From IMG/VR virus record IMGVR_UViG_3300037458_001303, positions 8,994-72,993 of that record: DNA of 64,000 bases; one strand, 5' to 3'. The notes under the pieces were generated by a model, which did no database searches, was not told the DNA's origin, and saw nothing but the letters and a program-made list of their open reading frames with translations. This DNA comes from a virus (taxonomy: Duplodnaviria; Caudoviricetes). Position numbers and translations under genes: made by a program. Numbering within the stretch: position 1 is the first letter of the stretch; each line of letters opens with the position of its first letter. Positions 19,313-25,907 of the stretch are shown here, one piece after another.

Positions 19313-19528
19313 ATGGCTAGCCGCTGGGTCAAAAGAGTCGATGCGCGCCAAGCCCCAAGAGTGTCGAAATTCTTGGCAATCGCCTCGTCAGCGGCGCTCT
19401 TTCTGTTGTGGCTGTTGTGGTGCTCTGTTGTGATATTCCTGTGGGTGGCCCTACAGGGTGCCGCGGCCGTCGGGTGTTGTTACCGTGTCGCCCGACGGCT
19501 GCGGCCAACCAGTGTCTTAATGCCATGA
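19313..19528 (+). CDS. Small membrane protein
   Basis: Long hydrophobic stretch. Confidence 0.45.
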   Translation: MASRWVKRVDARQAPRVSKFLAIASSAALFLLWLLWCSVVIFLWVALQGAAAVGCCYRVARRLRPTSVLMP

Positions 19529-19902
19529 ACCGGCTGCGATGTTACTTCGATCAGGTCTTGTGCGCCTTGCTGGCGCCCGTGCTTCGCCTCGTTGAGCTGG
19601 AAGCTCGCGCTTCCAAACGCCGCGACGACGAGCTTTTCGACAAGCTCTCGAAACTCGAAACGACCATCCGCGAACGGTGCGACGCCTTGGATGCGGGCGT
19701 GCCGGCCGCGGTGCTCGGTCAGTATGGGACGGACGAGGCTGCCAGCATTGCCCGGGAGAAGGCCATGCTGAAGTTCCGGATGGAGCGCCAGACCACTGAA
19801 GCGCTGAAAAGAGAGCTTGCAAGAGTGCGGGAGATCCTATACGCTTTTTGTGATGAGAAGAACATGGGGCAACCTAAGGCCAACCGAAAGAGTTCACGGT
19901 AG
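19525..19902 (+). CDS. Coiled-coil hypothetical protein
   Basis: ATGA overlap with the previous gene. Confidence 0.5.
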   Translation: MNRLRCYFDQVLCALLAPVLRLVELEARASKRRDDELFDKLSKLETTIRERCDALDAGVPAAVLGQYGTDEAASIAREKAMLKFRMERQTTEALKRELARVREILYAFCDEKNMGQPKANRKSSR

Positions 19903-19943
19903 GCGGCCCGGATACGACCGGGCGGTAGAGAGGCGCTGGAAAT

Positions 19944-20126
19944 ATGAAGACGAAGAAAACGACGAAGCGGGCGGAGAAGTCAGCGTGGCTGCTGCTCGAC
20001 GGCGACCTCCCTGTTGCTGTCACGACGATGTTGGGAGTTGCGGCACTGTGGGCGAAGTCGAAGGACAGTCGGCTGTCTGTGAGGAAACCCCTGGCGCTAA
20101 CCTCTGAGGATCTTGGTGACCTGTGA
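19944..20126 (+). CDS. Small hypothetical protein coupled to TnpB
   Basis: GTGA overlap with the TnpB start. Confidence 0.5.
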   Translation: MKTKKTTKRAEKSAWLLLDGDLPVAVTTMLGVAALWAKSKDSRLSVRKPLALTSEDLGDL

Positions 20127-21604
20127 CAACGCGTGCTTTCAAATACCGGCTGCTGCTCGACGATCACCAGGAGCGCCGCTTGCTTGATGTGCAGGCGCGC
20201 CTCCGCATGCTGTGGAACCGCGCTGTGGGCCATCTCAACCACGCCCTGTGGATGATCCAGCACGGTCGTCGGTCGAGCCTCATCGCCGAATTCCGGCGGC
20301 TCCGCGGCGACGTGAAGCCGGTTGGCGCTCGTGCAGGGCAGATCAACAAGCTGGTCGCCGCCGGCCGAACCCGCGAAGAGGCTATCAAATTGCTCGATGA
20401 GAAAACAGTCAGCGAAGCTGTGTCCATTTACCGGGCGAAGAAGACCGGGCCGCGCATGATATGGGCCGCGGCACGTCGGCTCGCTGCGGCCTACGCCGAG
20501 TTGTGGCTTACCCAAGACGCGCCGAGACAATGGTTTGATGGACTGCACGCCGACGCGTATTCGGCAATGAGTCAGCGGTTCCACGATTGCCTGGAGGCGT
20601 GGAAAAAGAATTCGAAAACGCACGGGCCGCCGAAGCGCAAGAAAATGCGGAACGGCGTAGCTCTCGGGTTTAAGGCGCGGAAGTTCTCGCTCCAGCGGGA
20701 GGGAGACCGCGTGTTTGTGGACCTGAGTCGGATCGGTGGGAGCCACCTGAGTCGCTGCCGCCTCGTGCTGCATCGCGAGCTGCCTGAGCAAGCGGAAGTG
20801 CTAAACGTTCGCGTTGCCGGGTCACGCGGCATGTGGACCGTCTCGTTCGAGCTGCGCGCTCCCGATGAGGCGTTTGCCATAACCGGCGTGCAGACCGGCG
20901 GACAGGTCGGCATCGACCCCGGGCTCAAAGCTGCCCTGACGATCGTGCGCGGTGATGATACCCATGGCAAGCATCCCGAGACGGTGACCCCGGCCTCTGA
21001 GATGCCCAACGCCAACCGGGTGCTCGCACAGCAGAAGCGATTACAGCGCCATCTGTCGCGCCAACTGAAGCTCAACAACCCTGATTGCATTGGGAAAGAT
21101 GGTGCCTGGATCAAAGGCAAGCGTGCCTCGAACATCAGCCGAGGCATGATCAAGACTCAGGCTCGATTGGCTCGGTTGTCGATGCGCGTCACGGACTTTC
21201 GGACTCAGTTTTACCATCGGGTCGCGAATCGGATCCTGGCCCAGAATGATCTGGTTGCAGTGGGGTCGTTTCGCCCGACGGATATGGCCAAGAAGAATCG
21301 CACCGGCAAAGCGGCCAAGAAGGGTTTGGGAGCGGCACGTCGTGGGCGCAATCGAAAGTCGTATCAGCACGCTATCTCGACGTTTGTCGCGATGCTGAAG
21401 GACAAGGCCCGACGCTATAACGTTGAGCGGAAGGTGGTCGACGTTGCCGAGCAAAACACAACGCGGACGTGCCCAAATTGTCTTGAAAAAAGTGGCCCGA
21501 CATCGCTTGACATCCGCTCGTGGGTGTGCGATAAGTGTGGCGCAGGGCACAACCGGGACGGCGCAGCCGCCTGGAATATCCTGCAGAAAGCTTTGACGAC
21601 GTAA
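20123..21604 (+). CDS. tnpB: CRISPR-adjacent TnpB/Cas12-like RNA-guided nuclease (IS607/Fanzor-type rearranged RuvC)
   Basis: N-terminal RAFKYRL; RuvC-I VGIDPG (D265); NNPDC...KGK insertion; RuvC-II VAVGSF (G381); VAEQNTTRTC (E443); zinc finger CPNC...CDKC; RuvC-III HNRDGAAAWNI (D479). Confidence 0.92.
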   Translation: MTTRAFKYRLLLDDHQERRLLDVQARLRMLWNRAVGHLNHALWMIQHGRRSSLIAEFRRLRGDVKPVGARAGQINKLVAAGRTREEAIKLLDEKTVSEAVSIYRAKKTGPRMIWAAARRLAAAYAELWLTQDAPRQWFDGLHADAYSAMSQRFHDCLEAWKKNSKTHGPPKRKKMRNGVALGFKARKFSLQREGDRVFVDLSRIGGSHLSRCRLVLHRELPEQAEVLNVRVAGSRGMWTVSFELRAPDEAFAITGVQTGGQVGIDPGLKAALTIVRGDDTHGKHPETVTPASEMPNANRVLAQQKRLQRHLSRQLKLNNPDCIGKDGAWIKGKRASNISRGMIKTQARLARLSMRVTDFRTQFYHRVANRILAQNDLVAVGSFRPTDMAKKNRTGKAAKKGLGAARRGRNRKSYQHAISTFVAMLKDKARRYNVERKVVDVAEQNTTRTCPNCLEKSGPTSLDIRSWVCDKCGAGHNRDGAAAWNILQKALTT

Positions 21605-21876
21605 GTCGTCGGTGGGAGCGGAAACGCATGCCGTTCCTGGGCGAAAGCCCGAATTGCGGTGGCGCTAAGCTGGCATTAGTCGGCTTGTCATCGAAGGATC
21701 CCGAGGGACCCTTGCTGTAGTGAGAGCGTAGCGGCAGTTTGCTGTCGTGAACATAATCCGGCGCAGCCGTGTGCTGCACCTTAGCGTTGGCCAAGTGGCT
21801 GGCGTAGGACAGAGATCGCTCTGGCTTCAGCGAGCCGCCCTGTAAGCGGATCCATCGCGCGTGCGCGAAGTGCGGG
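21595..21876 (+). ncRNA. Putative omegaRNA / tracrRNA-like scaffold
   Basis: Non-coding, many hairpins: GACGAC-GTAA-GTCGTC, GGGC-GAAA-GCCC, CAGAG-ATCG-CTCTG; long-range GGCGCTAAG (21661-69) pairs with CTTAGCGTT (21780-88); ends in the 3' part of the repeat. Confidence 0.7.
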
Positions 21877-22173
21877 GACAAGAAAGAGGCTCGGTGCATT
21901 GCCAACGTCGCATCTCGCGCGCGTGCGCGAAGTGCGGCGCGAGCAACTTGTGCAGTTCCTCGGGGTCGCATCTCGCGCGCGTGCGCGAAGTGCGGCGGGC
22001 GTCGGATGAAGGTCGCATCTCGCGCGCGTGCGCGAAGTGCGGCACGAAGGGAGTGAAGCATGAGTAGTGAAAACGAAGTCGCATCTCGCGCGCGTGCGCG
22101 AAGTGCGGCTCGAGACGATCGCGCACTACACCGCGGCGCAAGTCGCATCTCGCGCGCGTGCGCGAAGTGCGGC
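21845..22173 (+). CRISPR. Mini CRISPR array: five perfect 32-nt repeats plus one 5'-degenerate repeat, five spacers
   Basis: GTCGCATCTCGCGCGCGTGCGCGAAGTGCGGC at 21907, 21965, 22012, 22078, 22142; degenerate copy 21845-21876; unique spacers of 30, 26, 15, 34 and 32 nt; orientation inferred. Confidence 0.88.
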
Positions 22174-22186
22174 GCGGAGCTAGGAT

Positions 22187-22534
22187 ATGGAATTTATGAA
22201 AAAAACGAAAATCAGAGAGATGGGACGGGATTTCACGGTGGGTAAACCTCCGATGTTTTCGCCGTTGGAACGTATGTATCGCAAGGTGCGCGCTGCCACG
22301 ATCTGGCAGCTGAAGCGCTGGGCAAAGTCCTGGCCGGCCAAGGCGCGTCGCCTGGGTGAGATGCACGCCGCCTGGGTATCCATCCACGGGGACGACCGCT
22401 CGCCGTTCATTCGCCACCTGTTCGATCTCGCCGGCGCGATCGAGTCGATCCGCGACGAGGTGGCCCATCGCCAGACAGGCACGCCGAGAGCGTTTAACCC
22501 GGGAACCTATGAGCTCGGCCGCATTACCCAATAA
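22187..22534 (+). CDS. Hypothetical protein
   Basis: 115-aa ORF starting 13 nt after the last repeat. Confidence 0.6.
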   Translation: MEFMKKTKIREMGRDFTVGKPPMFSPLERMYRKVRAATIWQLKRWAKSWPAKARRLGEMHAAWVSIHGDDRSPFIRHLFDLAGAIESIRDEVAHRQTGTPRAFNPGTYELGRITQ

Positions 22535-22541
22535 CGGCGAA

Positions 22542-22700
22542 GTGCGCCGGTGGCTGGCCCTCTACCATAACCCCTACAACGAGGTGTATGTGGGCCGGTC
22601 TCGGCGCCTGAACTACTATCCGATTTATCTTGAGTTCGACCCGAAACGCGGATACAAACCACATCATGAAAAGCAAGCTGAAGCACGCACTGATCAGTAA
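22542..22700 (+). CDS. Small hypothetical protein
   Basis: GTG start; fills the gap before the dNMP kinase. Confidence 0.3.
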   Translation: MRRWLALYHNPYNEVYVGRSRRLNYYPIYLEFDPKRGYKPHHEKQAEARTDQ

Positions 22701-23466
22701 AGGTGTCATCGGTTTCACGGGATCGGCCTGTGCTGGCAAGGACTACCTCGCCGGCCTGTTGGGCGCCCGGACCGAGGGAATGGCCGAGCCACTTTACTGG
22801 ATGACGGACTGCCTATTCGGCCTCACGTCGGAGGATCGTGGCGTCGTTGGGCTGCGCGAGACGTGGCAGACCCTGGGGCAGTGGGGTAAGGGCACGGTCA
22901 ACGACCGCTATCCCATCACGCCGGCCCGCGGTGTCTTCTGCGAGTTTGTCCGTAGCTACTTCGAGTCGCGGGACGAGGACTACGAAGCGAAGCACGACCG
23001 CCCGCTCTGCGTTGACTGGCCCTCCTACGGGTTCCAGGAGGGAATCTGGATCGACTCCATGGTGGACCGCATCGACCACCGCCTATTGACCAAGAAGGAC
23101 CGGCTGATCGCCGTCACTGGACTGCGGTTCCCGATCGAGATCGAGGCGTTCGCCGAGAAGGGGTGGCCGGTGCTGCACGTCATGGCCAGTCCGATCACGC
23201 TTGGCCGGCGCCAAGCGACACAAAACATCACCGACGAGGCCCGGCGTGACGTGTCCGAGGGGCTGGCCCACCGTCTGAACAGTATCCTGTGGGACGCGGC
23301 TAGCCCGACTACCCCGGTGCCGGACATCCCGGATCTGCTTGAGATGAATGACATCCGGGGAGTCTGGGGGGCAGTCTGGAACGATCCTGAAGCCCCCTGC
23401 AGGAATGAAGAGTTCTTGACACCGGCGGAGCTTTTGGGTATGTTGCCGCCGATGATAAAAGACTGA
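22666..23466 (+). CDS. Deoxynucleoside monophosphate kinase-like protein
   Basis: VIGFTGSACAGKD P-loop, RETWQTLG, GIWID, VTGLRFPIE. Confidence 0.8.
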   Translation: MKSKLKHALISKGVIGFTGSACAGKDYLAGLLGARTEGMAEPLYWMTDCLFGLTSEDRGVVGLRETWQTLGQWGKGTVNDRYPITPARGVFCEFVRSYFESRDEDYEAKHDRPLCVDWPSYGFQEGIWIDSMVDRIDHRLLTKKDRLIAVTGLRFPIEIEAFAEKGWPVLHVMASPITLGRRQATQNITDEARRDVSEGLAHRLNSILWDAASPTTPVPDIPDLLEMNDIRGVWGAVWNDPEAPCRNEEFLTPAELLGMLPPMIKD

Positions 23467-25489: not shown

Positions 25490-25907
25490 CGGTTATCCGG
25501 GCCCGATGCGACCGCGTCGGGATTAAATGAGGTGTGATGCCTCGCCGGAACTAACGGGCCGCCGGGTTAGTTGCGGCCCTCCTTGGGACGAGCTCCGTTA
25601 AGCGTCCGGCGCGCGATGGGCTGAGCCGGTTGATATCCCGATCTCACGCGGGGAGCCGAAAGGACTGTAAGCCCCGAACGGGGCTCGTCCCAGGGACTGA
25701 GCCGGACAACACAAGACACCGGCCGGCGACTGGTAGCGACTGCCGTGAGGTGGTGCTAAAACTGAGCAATTACATTCGCGAACGCTGCTGAATCTATGCG
25801 ATAGACCAGACAACGGGTTCGAACAAAAAATGCTGTGGAGCCGTCCAGCATCTGCCAACCTTGCTGGACGGTTCTTCGAGCGGCCCTGAGGGGCCTTTCG
25901 GAGAACC
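25490..25907 (+). ncRNA. Unidentified large structured RNA candidate
   Basis: 17-bp stem 25581-97/25679-95; 7-bp pseudoknot 25604-10/25701-07; several hairpins; 13-bp stem 25838-50/25862-74; own promoter. Confidence 0.6.

What the first reader, a model, noticed from the sequence alone, without database searches (positions are those of the whole stretch)
21595..21906. Scaffold RNA runs directly into a half-repeat and spacer 1 (natural single guide?)
Seen: the first repeat keeps the 3' 20 nt (CGCGCGTGCGCGAAGTGCGG, 21856-21875) while its 5' part diverges. It is contiguous with a hairpin-rich region that begins across the TnpB stop codon. Inferred: this is the original omegaRNA 3' end with spacer 1 as its guide, and the other repeats are duplications of that end, a snapshot of an array arising from an omegaRNA. 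The alternative is an ordinary degenerate trailer repeat of a minus-strand array.
Basis: partly seen in the sequence, partly recalled or inferred. Interest (0 to 1): 0.75.

Follow-up and report, generated by a model that had tools for sequence, protein, structure and literature searches.

The report
Phage TnpB guide RNA fused to first spacer
A wetland phage carries a small TnpB-type RNA-guided nuclease, and its folded helper RNA is transcribed as one molecule with a worn first CRISPR repeat and the first spacer, like a natural single-guide RNA. It is a variant of the recently described transposon-to-CRISPR intermediates and does not show an array being born.

Summary
The 20 nt at 21856-21875 are identical to the 3' end of all five full repeats. 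This first repeat, R0 (21845-21876), matches the 32-nt repeat at 25 of 32 positions, and the changes lie in its 5' 11 nt. Contigs from three wetland metatranscriptomes cover only 21552/21566/21594 to 21883/21890/21942. That span is the structured scaffold, R0 and 8-15+ nt of spacer 1 in one piece. The nuclease ORF and downstream genes have no RNA contig, and later array units are about 10-fold weaker. Fold asymmetry, G-U-containing covarying helices and an adapter remnant all point to the plus strand, so the minus-strand trailer alternative is rejected. The protein is a confident TnpB/Cas12 fold whose RuvC-II glutamate has moved (G381, E443), so it is probably an active nuclease. I found no anti-repeat above background in this locus. 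Relatives at 30-37% identity have regular arrays with a full first repeat next to the same scaffold motif, and they sit on both sides of the family's basal split. The array is therefore ancestral, and R0 is most likely a decayed first repeat that keeps its guide-proximal handle. Verdict: the natural single-guide layout is supported at the RNA level but its function is untested, and the "array being born" reading is not supported. The scan has noted similar fused layouts in other genomes.

The parts
20123..21604 (+). 493-aa TnpB-derived effector gene (P0001) with a relocated RuvC-II glutamate: D265, G381 at the canonical Glu position, E443, D479, and a CxxC...CxxC zinc finger
   Evidence: NCBIfam guided_TnpB at 6e-42 and Pfam Cas12f1-like_TNB. 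Best solved relative by sequence is LaTranC at 1e-10. AF2 model has pLDDT 94 and matches TnpB, Cas12p, Cas12f, Cas12m and TranC folds. G381 and E443 are invariant in 21 family members.
21507..21535 (+). Promoter-like element inside the ORF's 3' end: TTGACA (21507-21512), 17 nt, GATAAG (21530-21535). The predicted start is near 21541-21543.
   Evidence: Read directly. L007 has TTGACA-N17-TCTAAT at the homologous place. The consensus scanner did not call it because base 6 of the -10 hexamer is G. Inference only. RNA contigs begin 10-50 nt downstream.
21552..21844 (+). Structured scaffold RNA (omegaRNA/tracrRNA-like). It contains H1 21593-21612 (stop codon in the loop), H2 21614-21638, H3 21639-21650, H4 21657-21693, and a multi-branch domain 21696-21841 that ends in the motif TTCAGCGAG-CCGCC (21826-21839).
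   Evidence: RNA contigs. Fold z = -3.17 on + versus -0.71 on -. H2 and H4 recur with compensatory changes in L007, L032 and L035. The terminal motif is shared with L032/L033. No Rfam match.
21845..21876 (+). R0, the degenerate first repeat. Its guide-proximal 20 nt (21856-21875) are identical to every other repeat. Its 5' 11 nt are diverged (5 of 11 match), which weakens the outer stem the full repeats can form (4 of 7 pairs remain).
   Evidence: Repeat hairpin is -21.3 kcal/mol. Pair count is by direct reading.
21877..21906 (+). Spacer 1 (30-31 nt), the candidate built-in guide
   Evidence: The two deepest RNA contigs end at 21883 and 21890, inside this spacer. A third runs on to 21942. No target was found.
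21907..22173 (+). Mini-array: five identical 32-nt repeats (21907, 21965, 22012, 22078, 22142) with spacers of 26, 15, 34 and 32 nt. The next ORF's ATG follows 13 nt after the last repeat.
   Evidence: A weak RNA contig covers 21964-22040, at depth 2.2 against 19.3 for the scaffold. In the DNA run the repeat contig is about 5.9x deeper than the flanks, so the full array is present there.

Best explanation
The region is the guide-RNA gene of a phage-borne, TnpB-derived CRISPR effector of the TranC / Cas12-U kind.

Proposed mechanism, step by step:
1. A + strand RNA starts about 50-60 nt before the nuclease stop codon, probably from a promoter inside the ORF. This step is inferred.
2. The RNA folds into a scaffold that is conserved in the protein's relatives. 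It continues without interruption through a worn first repeat (R0) into spacer 1.
3. R0 keeps the 20-nt guide-proximal handle that all repeats share, but it has lost most of the 5' strand of the repeat hairpin. I infer that R0 is not cut out of the transcript, so the scaffold stays covalently joined to guide 1 and acts as a natural single-guide RNA. The contiguity is shown. The function is inferred.
4. Read-through gives lower levels of the five regular repeat-spacer units. How, or whether, these dock on the scaffold is open, because this locus has no detectable anti-repeat.
5. The loaded protein would cut DNA that matches the guide, using a RuvC site with a relocated glutamate (D265/E443/D479). 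This step is inferred.
6. The likely role is competition with other phages.

The fused state is derived within a family that already had arrays. It is not a primordial state.
For: RNA:
- About 13 wetland metatranscriptome runs hold roughly 300 nt of the 1.5-kb probe.
- In the three runs I laid, contigs cover only 21594-21942, 21566-21883 and 21552-21890. None covers the ORF (21000-21550) or the downstream genes, while a DNA run covers everything. This rules out DNA carry-over.
- Every RNA contig bridges the scaffold/R0 and R0/spacer 1 junctions by more than 31 nt, except the R0/S1 junction in X5 and X7.
- The array is about 10-fold weaker: depth 2.2 against 19.3 in X5.

Strand:
- An adapter remnant abuts 21594/5, with the first mate on the - strand.
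- The fold asymmetry between the strands is 34 kcal/mol.
- Helix H4 keeps pairing through G-U and compensatory changes that work only on the + strand.
- In the relatives L032 and L033 the last repeat keeps its 5' half and loses its 3' half. This mirrors R0 and fits repeat-then-spacer crRNAs.

Selection on the handle: 20 of 20 positions are conserved, against 5 of 11 in the rest of R0.

Sister locus L007 (46% identity) also has a decayed element at the first-repeat position. It keeps the repeat's guide-proximal tail (AGTGC..GGC) and is followed by a 34-nt spacer-like stretch.

No anti-repeat: the repeat-scaffold duplex is -29.6 kcal/mol, against a background of -31.9 +/- 3.6. The ungapped score of 22 lies within the cross-locus range.

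Protein: fold and catalytic residues. A relocated glutamate replacing Gly at RuvC-II is described for TnpB clades as probably active (PMC10691335).
Against: - All RNA data are assembled contigs, not reads. Exact 5' and 3' ends, the relative amounts of cut and uncut forms, and the strand are therefore only indirectly supported.
- One contig (X4) reads through R1 into spacer 2, so precursor molecules exist.
- No target, TAM or PAM is known for spacer 1.
- R0's outer stem is weakened, so if that stem is needed for protein binding the fused guide could be inert.
- Only two loci (the window and L007) represent the subclade, so the 3' half of the structure model is not secured by covariation.
- The promoter is a consensus resemblance that lies inside conserved codons.
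Confidence: 0.6

Rival explanations
1. Ordinary tracrRNA plus pre-crRNA co-transcript. In this reading the RNA seen is a tracrRNA-like scaffold with a 3' tail of unprocessed leader-proximal array. R0 is a dead first repeat and spacer 1 is not used. The working guides are the crRNAs made from R1-R5, acting with the scaffold in trans.
For: Relatives have a full first repeat at this position. In L032 a scaffold segment is complementary to its repeat: a 12-nt perfect block, and about 30 bp if bulges are allowed. The X4 contig continues through R1. TranC and Cas12f systems are known to work with split RNAs (bioRxiv 10.64898/2026.03.27.714800; PMC13565253).
Against: The window's scaffold has no anti-repeat above background. 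In L032 the complementary segment is itself the 5' strand of the conserved cis hairpin H4. R0's 20-nt handle is perfectly kept while its 5' part decayed. The two deepest RNA contigs stop inside spacer 1, not at a repeat. Downstream units are about 10-fold less abundant.
Confidence: 0.27
2. Primordial array. In this reading R0 is the original omegaRNA 3' end and R1-R5 are recent duplications of it, so the locus shows a CRISPR array being born.
For: Spacer lengths are irregular (31, 26, 15, 34, 32 nt; in L007 35, 37, 0, 42, 17, 37), and the phage has no Cas1. This fits duplication or recombination better than measured acquisition. In L007 the last spacer shares 12 nt with the flank after the last repeat, with 1 of 500 shuffles as good. 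Serial duplication of omegaRNA segments is a published hypothesis (PMC10691335).
Against: Array-bearing relatives occur on both sides of the family's basal split (99% SH-aLRT support). The window and L007 form a clade sister to array-bearing loci. Those relatives have regular 33-39-nt spacers and up to 15 repeats. R0 retains 5 of 11 positions of the repeat's 5' part, as a decayed copy would. The repeat family keeps a shared 5' GTCGC and a length of about 32-37 nt across the tree.
Confidence: 0.08
3. Minus-strand array whose degenerate trailer repeat happens to abut a structured region.
For: Degenerate repeats usually sit at the leader-distal end of arrays (general knowledge). The RNA contigs are unstranded.
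Against: The - strand folds no better than shuffled sequence (z = -0.71). Covarying helices contain G-U pairs that are valid only on +. All neighbouring genes are on +, and the array is 13 nt from the next + strand start codon. Relatives lose the opposite half of their last repeat. The adapter remnant indicates that the first mate is antisense to +. Repeats begin GTCGC on +, as in all relatives.
Confidence: 0.03

Closest known systems
TranC (transposon-CRISPR intermediates; Jin et al., Cell 2025, doi 10.1016/j.cell.2025.09.004; solved example LaTranC, PDB 9JFO/9JFQ)
   Same: A TnpB-sized effector with a downstream mini-array and no adaptation genes. A scaffold RNA is encoded between the gene and the array, and such systems are found in phages. 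LaTranC is the best solved-structure sequence match (1e-10) and a fold match. The idea that crRNA plus tracrRNA arose by splitting an omegaRNA comes from this work. I know it from secondary sources and from memory, because the paper itself was not readable.
   Different: The sequence match to LaTranC covers only the C-terminal ~150 residues, so this is not the same clade. This family has the relocated RuvC-II glutamate. The window shows no anti-repeat, and its dominant RNA is unsplit, with scaffold, repeat and spacer in one piece. The clade assignment in Jin et al. could not be checked.
TnpB omegaRNA / reRNA of IS200/IS605-IS607 elements (e.g. ISDra2, PDB 8H1J, 8EXA)
   Same: Top structural match. 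The RNA starts inside the 3' end of the ORF, is several hundred nt long and carries its guide at the 3' end as one molecule.
   Different: The phage has no TnpA (Y1 or serine) and only a single copy of the gene. No transposon ends were recognised. The guide is followed by five more repeat-spacer units instead of flanking DNA.
RuvC-II-rearranged TnpB clades and Cas12-U groups (Altae-Tran et al., PNAS 2023, PMC10691335)
   Same: The canonical RuvC-II Glu is replaced by Gly, with a conserved alternative Glu on the next strand. The array lies downstream and there are no cas1, cas2 or cas4 genes. Some such branches are virus-specific.
   Different: I could not tell which named branch or V-U group this family belongs to. 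That paper reports no RNA-level evidence for a fused first guide.
Type V-F Cas12f with tracrRNA/sgRNA
   Same: A compact effector that needs a large scaffold RNA. PADLOC Cas12f, Cas12u2 and Cas12u4 models give the best named hits (1e-29 to 1e-21), and there are fold matches.
   Different: The NCBIfam type V models (C2c8, Cas12f2) score 56.7 and 23.5 bits, against cut-offs of 350 and 450. Natural Cas12f guide RNAs are split and pair through an anti-repeat, which is not detectable here.

Membership tests
TnpB / OMEGA (IS200/IS605, IS607) | TnpB fold: WED/REC, RuvC with an inserted zinc finger | tested here: met
   NF040570 at 144 bits, above the 100-bit cut-off. AF2 pLDDT 94, with top Foldseek hits ISDra2 and ISFba1 TnpB.
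TnpB / OMEGA (IS200/IS605, IS607) | Single-molecule guide RNA that overlaps the ORF's 3' end and carries the guide at its 3' end | tested here: met
   RNA contigs run from 21552-21595 to 21883-21942. The stop codon is at 21602-21604.
TnpB / OMEGA (IS200/IS605, IS607) | Residence in a mobile IS with TnpA, or multiple copies and defined ends | tested here: not met
   No Y1 or serine recombinase and one gene copy in the complete 73-kb phage. The sister phage has the cassette in a related early-gene neighbourhood.
TranC / type V-U CRISPR-Cas | TnpB-derived effector conserved next to a CRISPR array on the same strand | tested here: met
   Arrays lie 340-480 nt downstream of the gene in the window, L007, L010, L011, L032-L036 and L038.
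TranC / type V-U CRISPR-Cas | tracrRNA with an anti-repeat that pairs with the repeats (split guide) | tested here: not met
   In the window the duplex energy and the ungapped complementarity do not exceed background or cross-locus controls. Some relatives (L032, L036) score above the controls.
TranC / type V-U CRISPR-Cas | Able to use both split (crRNA + tracrRNA) and unsplit (reRNA-like) guides | not testable with these tools
   This needs biochemistry. Only the expression of an unsplit form and weak array transcripts is shown.
Cas12f (type V-F) | Scores above curated family thresholds | tested here: not met
   CRISPR_Cas12f2 scores 23.5 bits against a 450-bit cut-off, and C2c8 scores 56.7 against 350. 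PADLOC Cas12f hits are only moderate.
TldR / nuclease-dead TnpB-like repressors | Loss of the RuvC catalytic triad without compensation | tested here: not met
   D265 and D479 are kept. E443 is invariant wherever G381 replaces the canonical Glu, in 21 of 21 sequences. This is the published relocated-Glu arrangement. Three-dimensional proximity was not measured.

The most novel reading that the evidence does not exclude
One natural locus expresses both states of the omegaRNA-to-CRISPR transition at once. The first state is a dominant, hard-wired, unsplit guide (scaffold-R0-spacer 1) that loads most of the effector. The second is a low-level set of exchangeable repeat-spacer units that work without any anti-repeat duplex, for example through protein recognition of the self-folding repeat hairpin or of the shared 20-nt handle. 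In this phage lineage the array units would be made by duplication or recombination, not by Cas1-Cas2, which would explain spacers of 0-42 nt.
Probability: 0.3. Interest if true: 0.65.

Novelty: new variant of a known kind. Interest (0 to 1): 0.5.

Why it matters
The current model for the origin of type V CRISPR systems says that a transposon's single guide RNA was split into tracrRNA and crRNA. A natural, expressed locus in which the scaffold is still, or again, covalently joined to its first guide while an array follows gives that model a concrete test case. One can ask whether fused and separate guides compete for the same protein, and whether an anti-repeat is needed at all.

The locus also offers a compact 493-aa effector with a ready-made natural single-guide design, from a rare family with a relocated catalytic glutamate. 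That is of practical interest for genome-editing tool discovery.

The evolutionary claim should stay modest. The family already had arrays, so this locus shows plasticity, not origin.

Tried and rejected
- Rfam scan of 19500-23000 at E <= 1: no family.
- Consensus promoter/terminator scan: no promoter called, and only one terminator-like site, on the minus strand, below the shuffle expectation.
- Self-targets of the spacers in the phage and in L007: none beyond chance.
- Array against INPHARED phages in distant mode: only E >= 0.1 noise.
- Exact searches in IMG/VR for spacer 1 (22 nt), spacer 4 (21 nt) and spacer 2 (20 nt): no hits.
- The motif AATTGCGGNGGCGCTAA scanned in viral and genome collections returned 24 and more than 120 loci in unrelated organisms. 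That is about the number expected by chance for 16 fixed bases, so I did not pursue them.
- First viral scan with the two-sequence protein alignment: no relative.
- RNAduplex anti-repeat search: it looked strong at first in several loci, but cross-locus and background controls showed that gapped duplex energies do not discriminate. I kept only the statement that the window has nothing above background.
- A full covariation-backed model of the 3' half of the scaffold: the window/L007 alignment is ambiguous there, with two competing placements of TTCAGC and GGACAGAG, so I claim only H2 and H4. I did not build a covariance model because only two close sequences exist.
- The 235-nt shorter gap in a Logan contig is an assembly collapse of the identical repeats. 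35 nt fit both sides of the joint, and the repeat contig is about 5.9x deeper than the flanks. It is not a deletion variant.
- The Cell 2025 TranC paper could not be read.
Full report
**What is there.** The window is part of a 72,993-bp IMG/VR virus record that CheckV rates as complete. The same phage also sits in an NCBI metagenome-assembled contig.
- On the + strand, a 493-aa ORF (20123-21604) is a TnpB-family protein. It scores 6e-42 against NCBIfam guided_TnpB and matches Pfam Cas12f1-like_TNB.
- Its best solved relative by sequence is LaTranC, at 1e-10 over the C-terminal 150 residues only.
- About 240 nt after the stop codon comes a degenerate repeat (R0). Five identical 32-nt repeats follow, with spacers of 31, 26, 15, 34 and 32 nt.
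- The next + strand gene starts 13 nt after the last repeat.
- Neighbours are small unknown ORFs and nucleotide-metabolism genes (a dNMP kinase and a dNMP phosphatase), which fits an early phage region.
- The phage has no Y1 or serine TnpA, no Cas1 and only one copy of the effector.

**Checking the observation.**
- Read without gaps, R0 (21845-21876) matches the repeat at 25 of 32 positions. All 20 handle positions match, 5 of the 11 5' positions match, and the last base differs.
- R0 is therefore a full-length copy whose 5' part has decayed, not a truncated half.
- The full repeat is a near-perfect hairpin (-21.3 kcal/mol), with an outer stem GUCGCAU/GUGCGGC and an inner stem UCGCGC/GCGCGA.
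- R0 keeps a 5-bp inner stem, but only 4 of the 7 outer pairs can still form (direct reading).
- The upstream 290 nt fold far better on + (-146.5 kcal/mol, z = -3.17) than on - (-112.3, z = -0.71).

**RNA evidence.** A search of public runs found 13 RNA libraries on record as holding part of the stretch. Most are wetland metatranscriptomes that each hold 0.14-0.21 of the words of a 1.5-kb probe, about 300 nt. They are probably one sampling campaign. I laid three of them and one DNA run.
- The RNA contigs cover only 21594-21942 (X4), 21566-21883 (X5, depth 19) and 21552-21890 (X7). X5 also has a weak 77-nt contig over repeat 2, spacer 3 and repeat 3 (depth 2.2).
- Nothing covers the ORF from 21000 to 21550 or the genes after the array, while the DNA run covers all of it. 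The signal is therefore RNA-specific and not DNA carry-over.
- All three contigs bridge the scaffold/R0 junction, and the X4 contig also bridges R0/spacer 1, by more than 31 nt. Two contigs stop 8 and 15 nt into spacer 1, and one reads on through repeat 1.
- In X4 an Illumina adapter remnant abuts 21594/5 in the orientation expected if the first mate lies on the minus strand. In the usual stranded libraries that means a + strand RNA with a fragment end at 21595, which is a weak hint.
- These are assembled contigs. Exact ends and the ratio of cut to uncut molecules are not established.
- Upstream, inside the ORF, TTGACA-N17-GATAAG (21507-21535) resembles a promoter. The sister locus has TTGACA-N17-TCTAAT at the same place. 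This is an inference.

**Relatives.** The protein family is rare.
- A word-indexed search of 5.8 billion proteins found one relative at 46% identity (P0003). An exhaustive HMMER search found 44 proteins at E <= 1e-30, all at or below 37% identity.
- The sister locus L007 has the same layout: gene, ~270-nt scaffold, then seven 36-nt repeats ending in the same AGTGCGGC. Its spacers are 35, 37, 0, 42, 17 and 37 nt, and its last repeat is degenerate.
- The two phages share flanking genes at 55-60% identity.
- More distant members (L010, L011, L032-L036, L038) carry regular arrays of 3-15 repeats of 36-37 nt, with 33-39-nt spacers, 340-480 nt downstream of the gene on the same strand.
- In L032 and L033 the last repeat keeps its 5' half and loses its 3' half. 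This is the mirror image of R0 and fits + strand crRNAs that carry a 5' repeat-derived handle.

**Scaffold conservation.**
- Two hairpins recur in the window, L007, L032 and L035. One is H2 (21614-21638), with a CGCA-containing loop. The other is the long H4 (21657-21693), which follows a GAAUU linker.
- H4's outer stem changes as CGGUGGCG/UGUCAUCG, CGGGGGCG/UGCCCCUG and CGUCGGUG/UUGCCGACG. These are compensatory and G-U changes that are valid only on the + strand (pairs read directly).
- The scaffold ends in TTCAGCGAG-CCGCC (21826-21839), directly before R0. L032 and L033 have TTCAGCGAT 23 nt before their full first repeat, and L035 has a related sequence. R0 therefore occupies the family's first-repeat position.
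- In L007 that position holds a 17-nt remnant (CTCGCA + AGTGCcacGGC). It keeps the repeat's two ends but has lost the internal hairpin, and a 34-nt spacer-like stretch follows before the first full repeat. Both closest relatives thus have a decayed first repeat that preserves the guide-proximal tail. The L007 reading is tentative.
- I do not claim the 3' half of the structure, because the alignment there is ambiguous.

**Anti-repeat.** An RNAduplex screen seemed to find anti-repeats everywhere, but controls showed that the method does not discriminate.
- The window's repeat pairs with its own scaffold at -29.6 kcal/mol. Against 90 other 302-nt windows of the phage the mean is -31.9 +/- 3.6.
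- The ungapped complementarity score of 22 lies inside the cross-locus range of 18-35.
- Only L036 (21 nt) and L032 (a 12-nt perfect block, extendable with bulges) stand out. In L032 the complementary segment is itself the 5' strand of the conserved cis hairpin H4.
- The window therefore has no detectable tracr-type anti-repeat. This weakens a split-guide reading for this locus and leaves the use of repeats 1-5 unexplained.

**Protein.**
- The AF2 model is confident (pLDDT 94, pTM 0.85). It matches TnpB (8H1J, 8IAZ), Cas12p, Cas12f, Cas12m, Fanzor2 and LaTranC.
- The canonical RuvC-II Glu is Gly (G381), and E443 on the next strand is invariant in all 21 aligned family members. D265 and D479 are kept.
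- This is the published relocated-glutamate arrangement, judged there to be catalytically competent and found in virus-specific branches (PMC10691335).
I could not measure distances in the model.

**Evolutionary reading.** A quick maximum-likelihood tree (35 rows, 8 ordinary TnpBs as outgroup, SH-aLRT support only) recovers the family at 99%.
- It splits into two clades. One (98%) holds the array-bearing L010, L036 and L038.
- The other (96%) has the window plus L007 (100%) as sister to a group holding the array-bearing L032, L033, L035 and L011.
- Arrays on both sides of the basal split make an ancestral array the simplest reading. R0 is then a secondary decay, not the primordial omegaRNA end.
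- Caveats: the search was short, array states are known for only about 12 tips, and two tips (L009, L037) showed no regular array in the DNA I held.
- The irregular spacer lengths in the window and L007, the lack of Cas1, and a 12-nt identity between L007's last spacer and the flank after its last repeat (1 of 500 shuffles) suggest something narrower. In this subclade, array units may turn over by duplication or recombination and not by measured acquisition.

**Comparison with what is known.**
- TnpB-derived effectors with mini-arrays and a scaffold between the gene and the array are the TranC / Cas12-U kind, including phage-borne examples.
- Array origin by duplication of omegaRNA segments, and guide splitting as the key step, are published ideas.
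- This scan's own earlier follow-ups describe fused scaffold-first-guide layouts in other genomes. Those notes are leads, not evidence.
- What this locus adds is expression data showing that the unsplit form is the dominant RNA. It comes from a family with a relocated catalytic glutamate, and the locus has no detectable anti-repeat.

**Verdict.** The single-guide layout is supported at the RNA level, but its function is untested. The "array being born" reading is not supported, and the minus-strand alternative is rejected.

Noticed in passing
window 22110-22129 (spacer 5, first 20 nt); L256:3574-3593 (-): The first 20 nt of spacer 5 match exactly inside the major head protein gene (PHROG 10, 1.7e-51) of an unrelated viral contig with the same GC content (IMGVR_UViG_3300045927_000061). 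The match stops at nt 20, and only 4 of the next 12 bases agree. I expect roughly 0.1-0.2 chance hits per query, so this is a weak candidate protospacer. Its 5' flank is ...GCTCCCGG.
   Followed up: partly
L007:8224-8260 versus L007:8297-8380: In the sister locus, the last spacer begins with 12 nt (GAGCGGCGCGAA) that recur 5 nt into the flank after the last repeat, at the start of the next gene. Only 1 of 500 shuffles scores as well. Another spacer (T4) also begins with GAGCGGC. This hints that units arise by duplication of the terminal repeat plus flank.
   Followed up: partly
window 21939-22141; L007:7913-8260: Spacer lengths are very irregular in the window (26, 15, 34, 32 nt) and in L007 (35, 37, 0, 42, 17, 37 nt). 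More distant relatives have regular 33-39-nt spacers. Spacer 4 reads like a ribosome-binding site followed by ATG.
   Followed up: partly
L011:3934-4320 and other family ORFs (P0008, P0010, P0017 and others, 560-660 aa): Many family members are called with long, unconserved C-terminal extensions that run across the scaffold region up to the array. These are probably ORF read-through over the RNA gene and not real protein. The 30-aa ORF called inside the window's scaffold (about 21628-21720) is likely spurious too.
   Followed up: no
L010:4428-5490: The 15 repeats of this relative's array are not identical. The central hairpin varies between copies (GGTTCCAACAGGCTGG, GGTTCCGGAGGGCTGG, GGTTCCGAACGGCTGG), which is unusual for a CRISPR array. 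The near-identical protein in L037 has no regular array.
   Followed up: no
L032:1824-1853: The 3' strand of scaffold hairpin H4 in L032 (GTTGCCGACG...GCGAGGGAC) resembles both ends of that locus's own CRISPR repeat (GTCGCCGACG...GCGTGAGGAC). However, it is conserved with L035, whose repeat differs, so the resemblance may be ancient or coincidental.
   Followed up: partly
window 25490-25830: Another first-reader note flags a long intergenic stretch here as a possible pseudoknotted ncRNA with its own promoter. I did not examine it.
   Followed up: no
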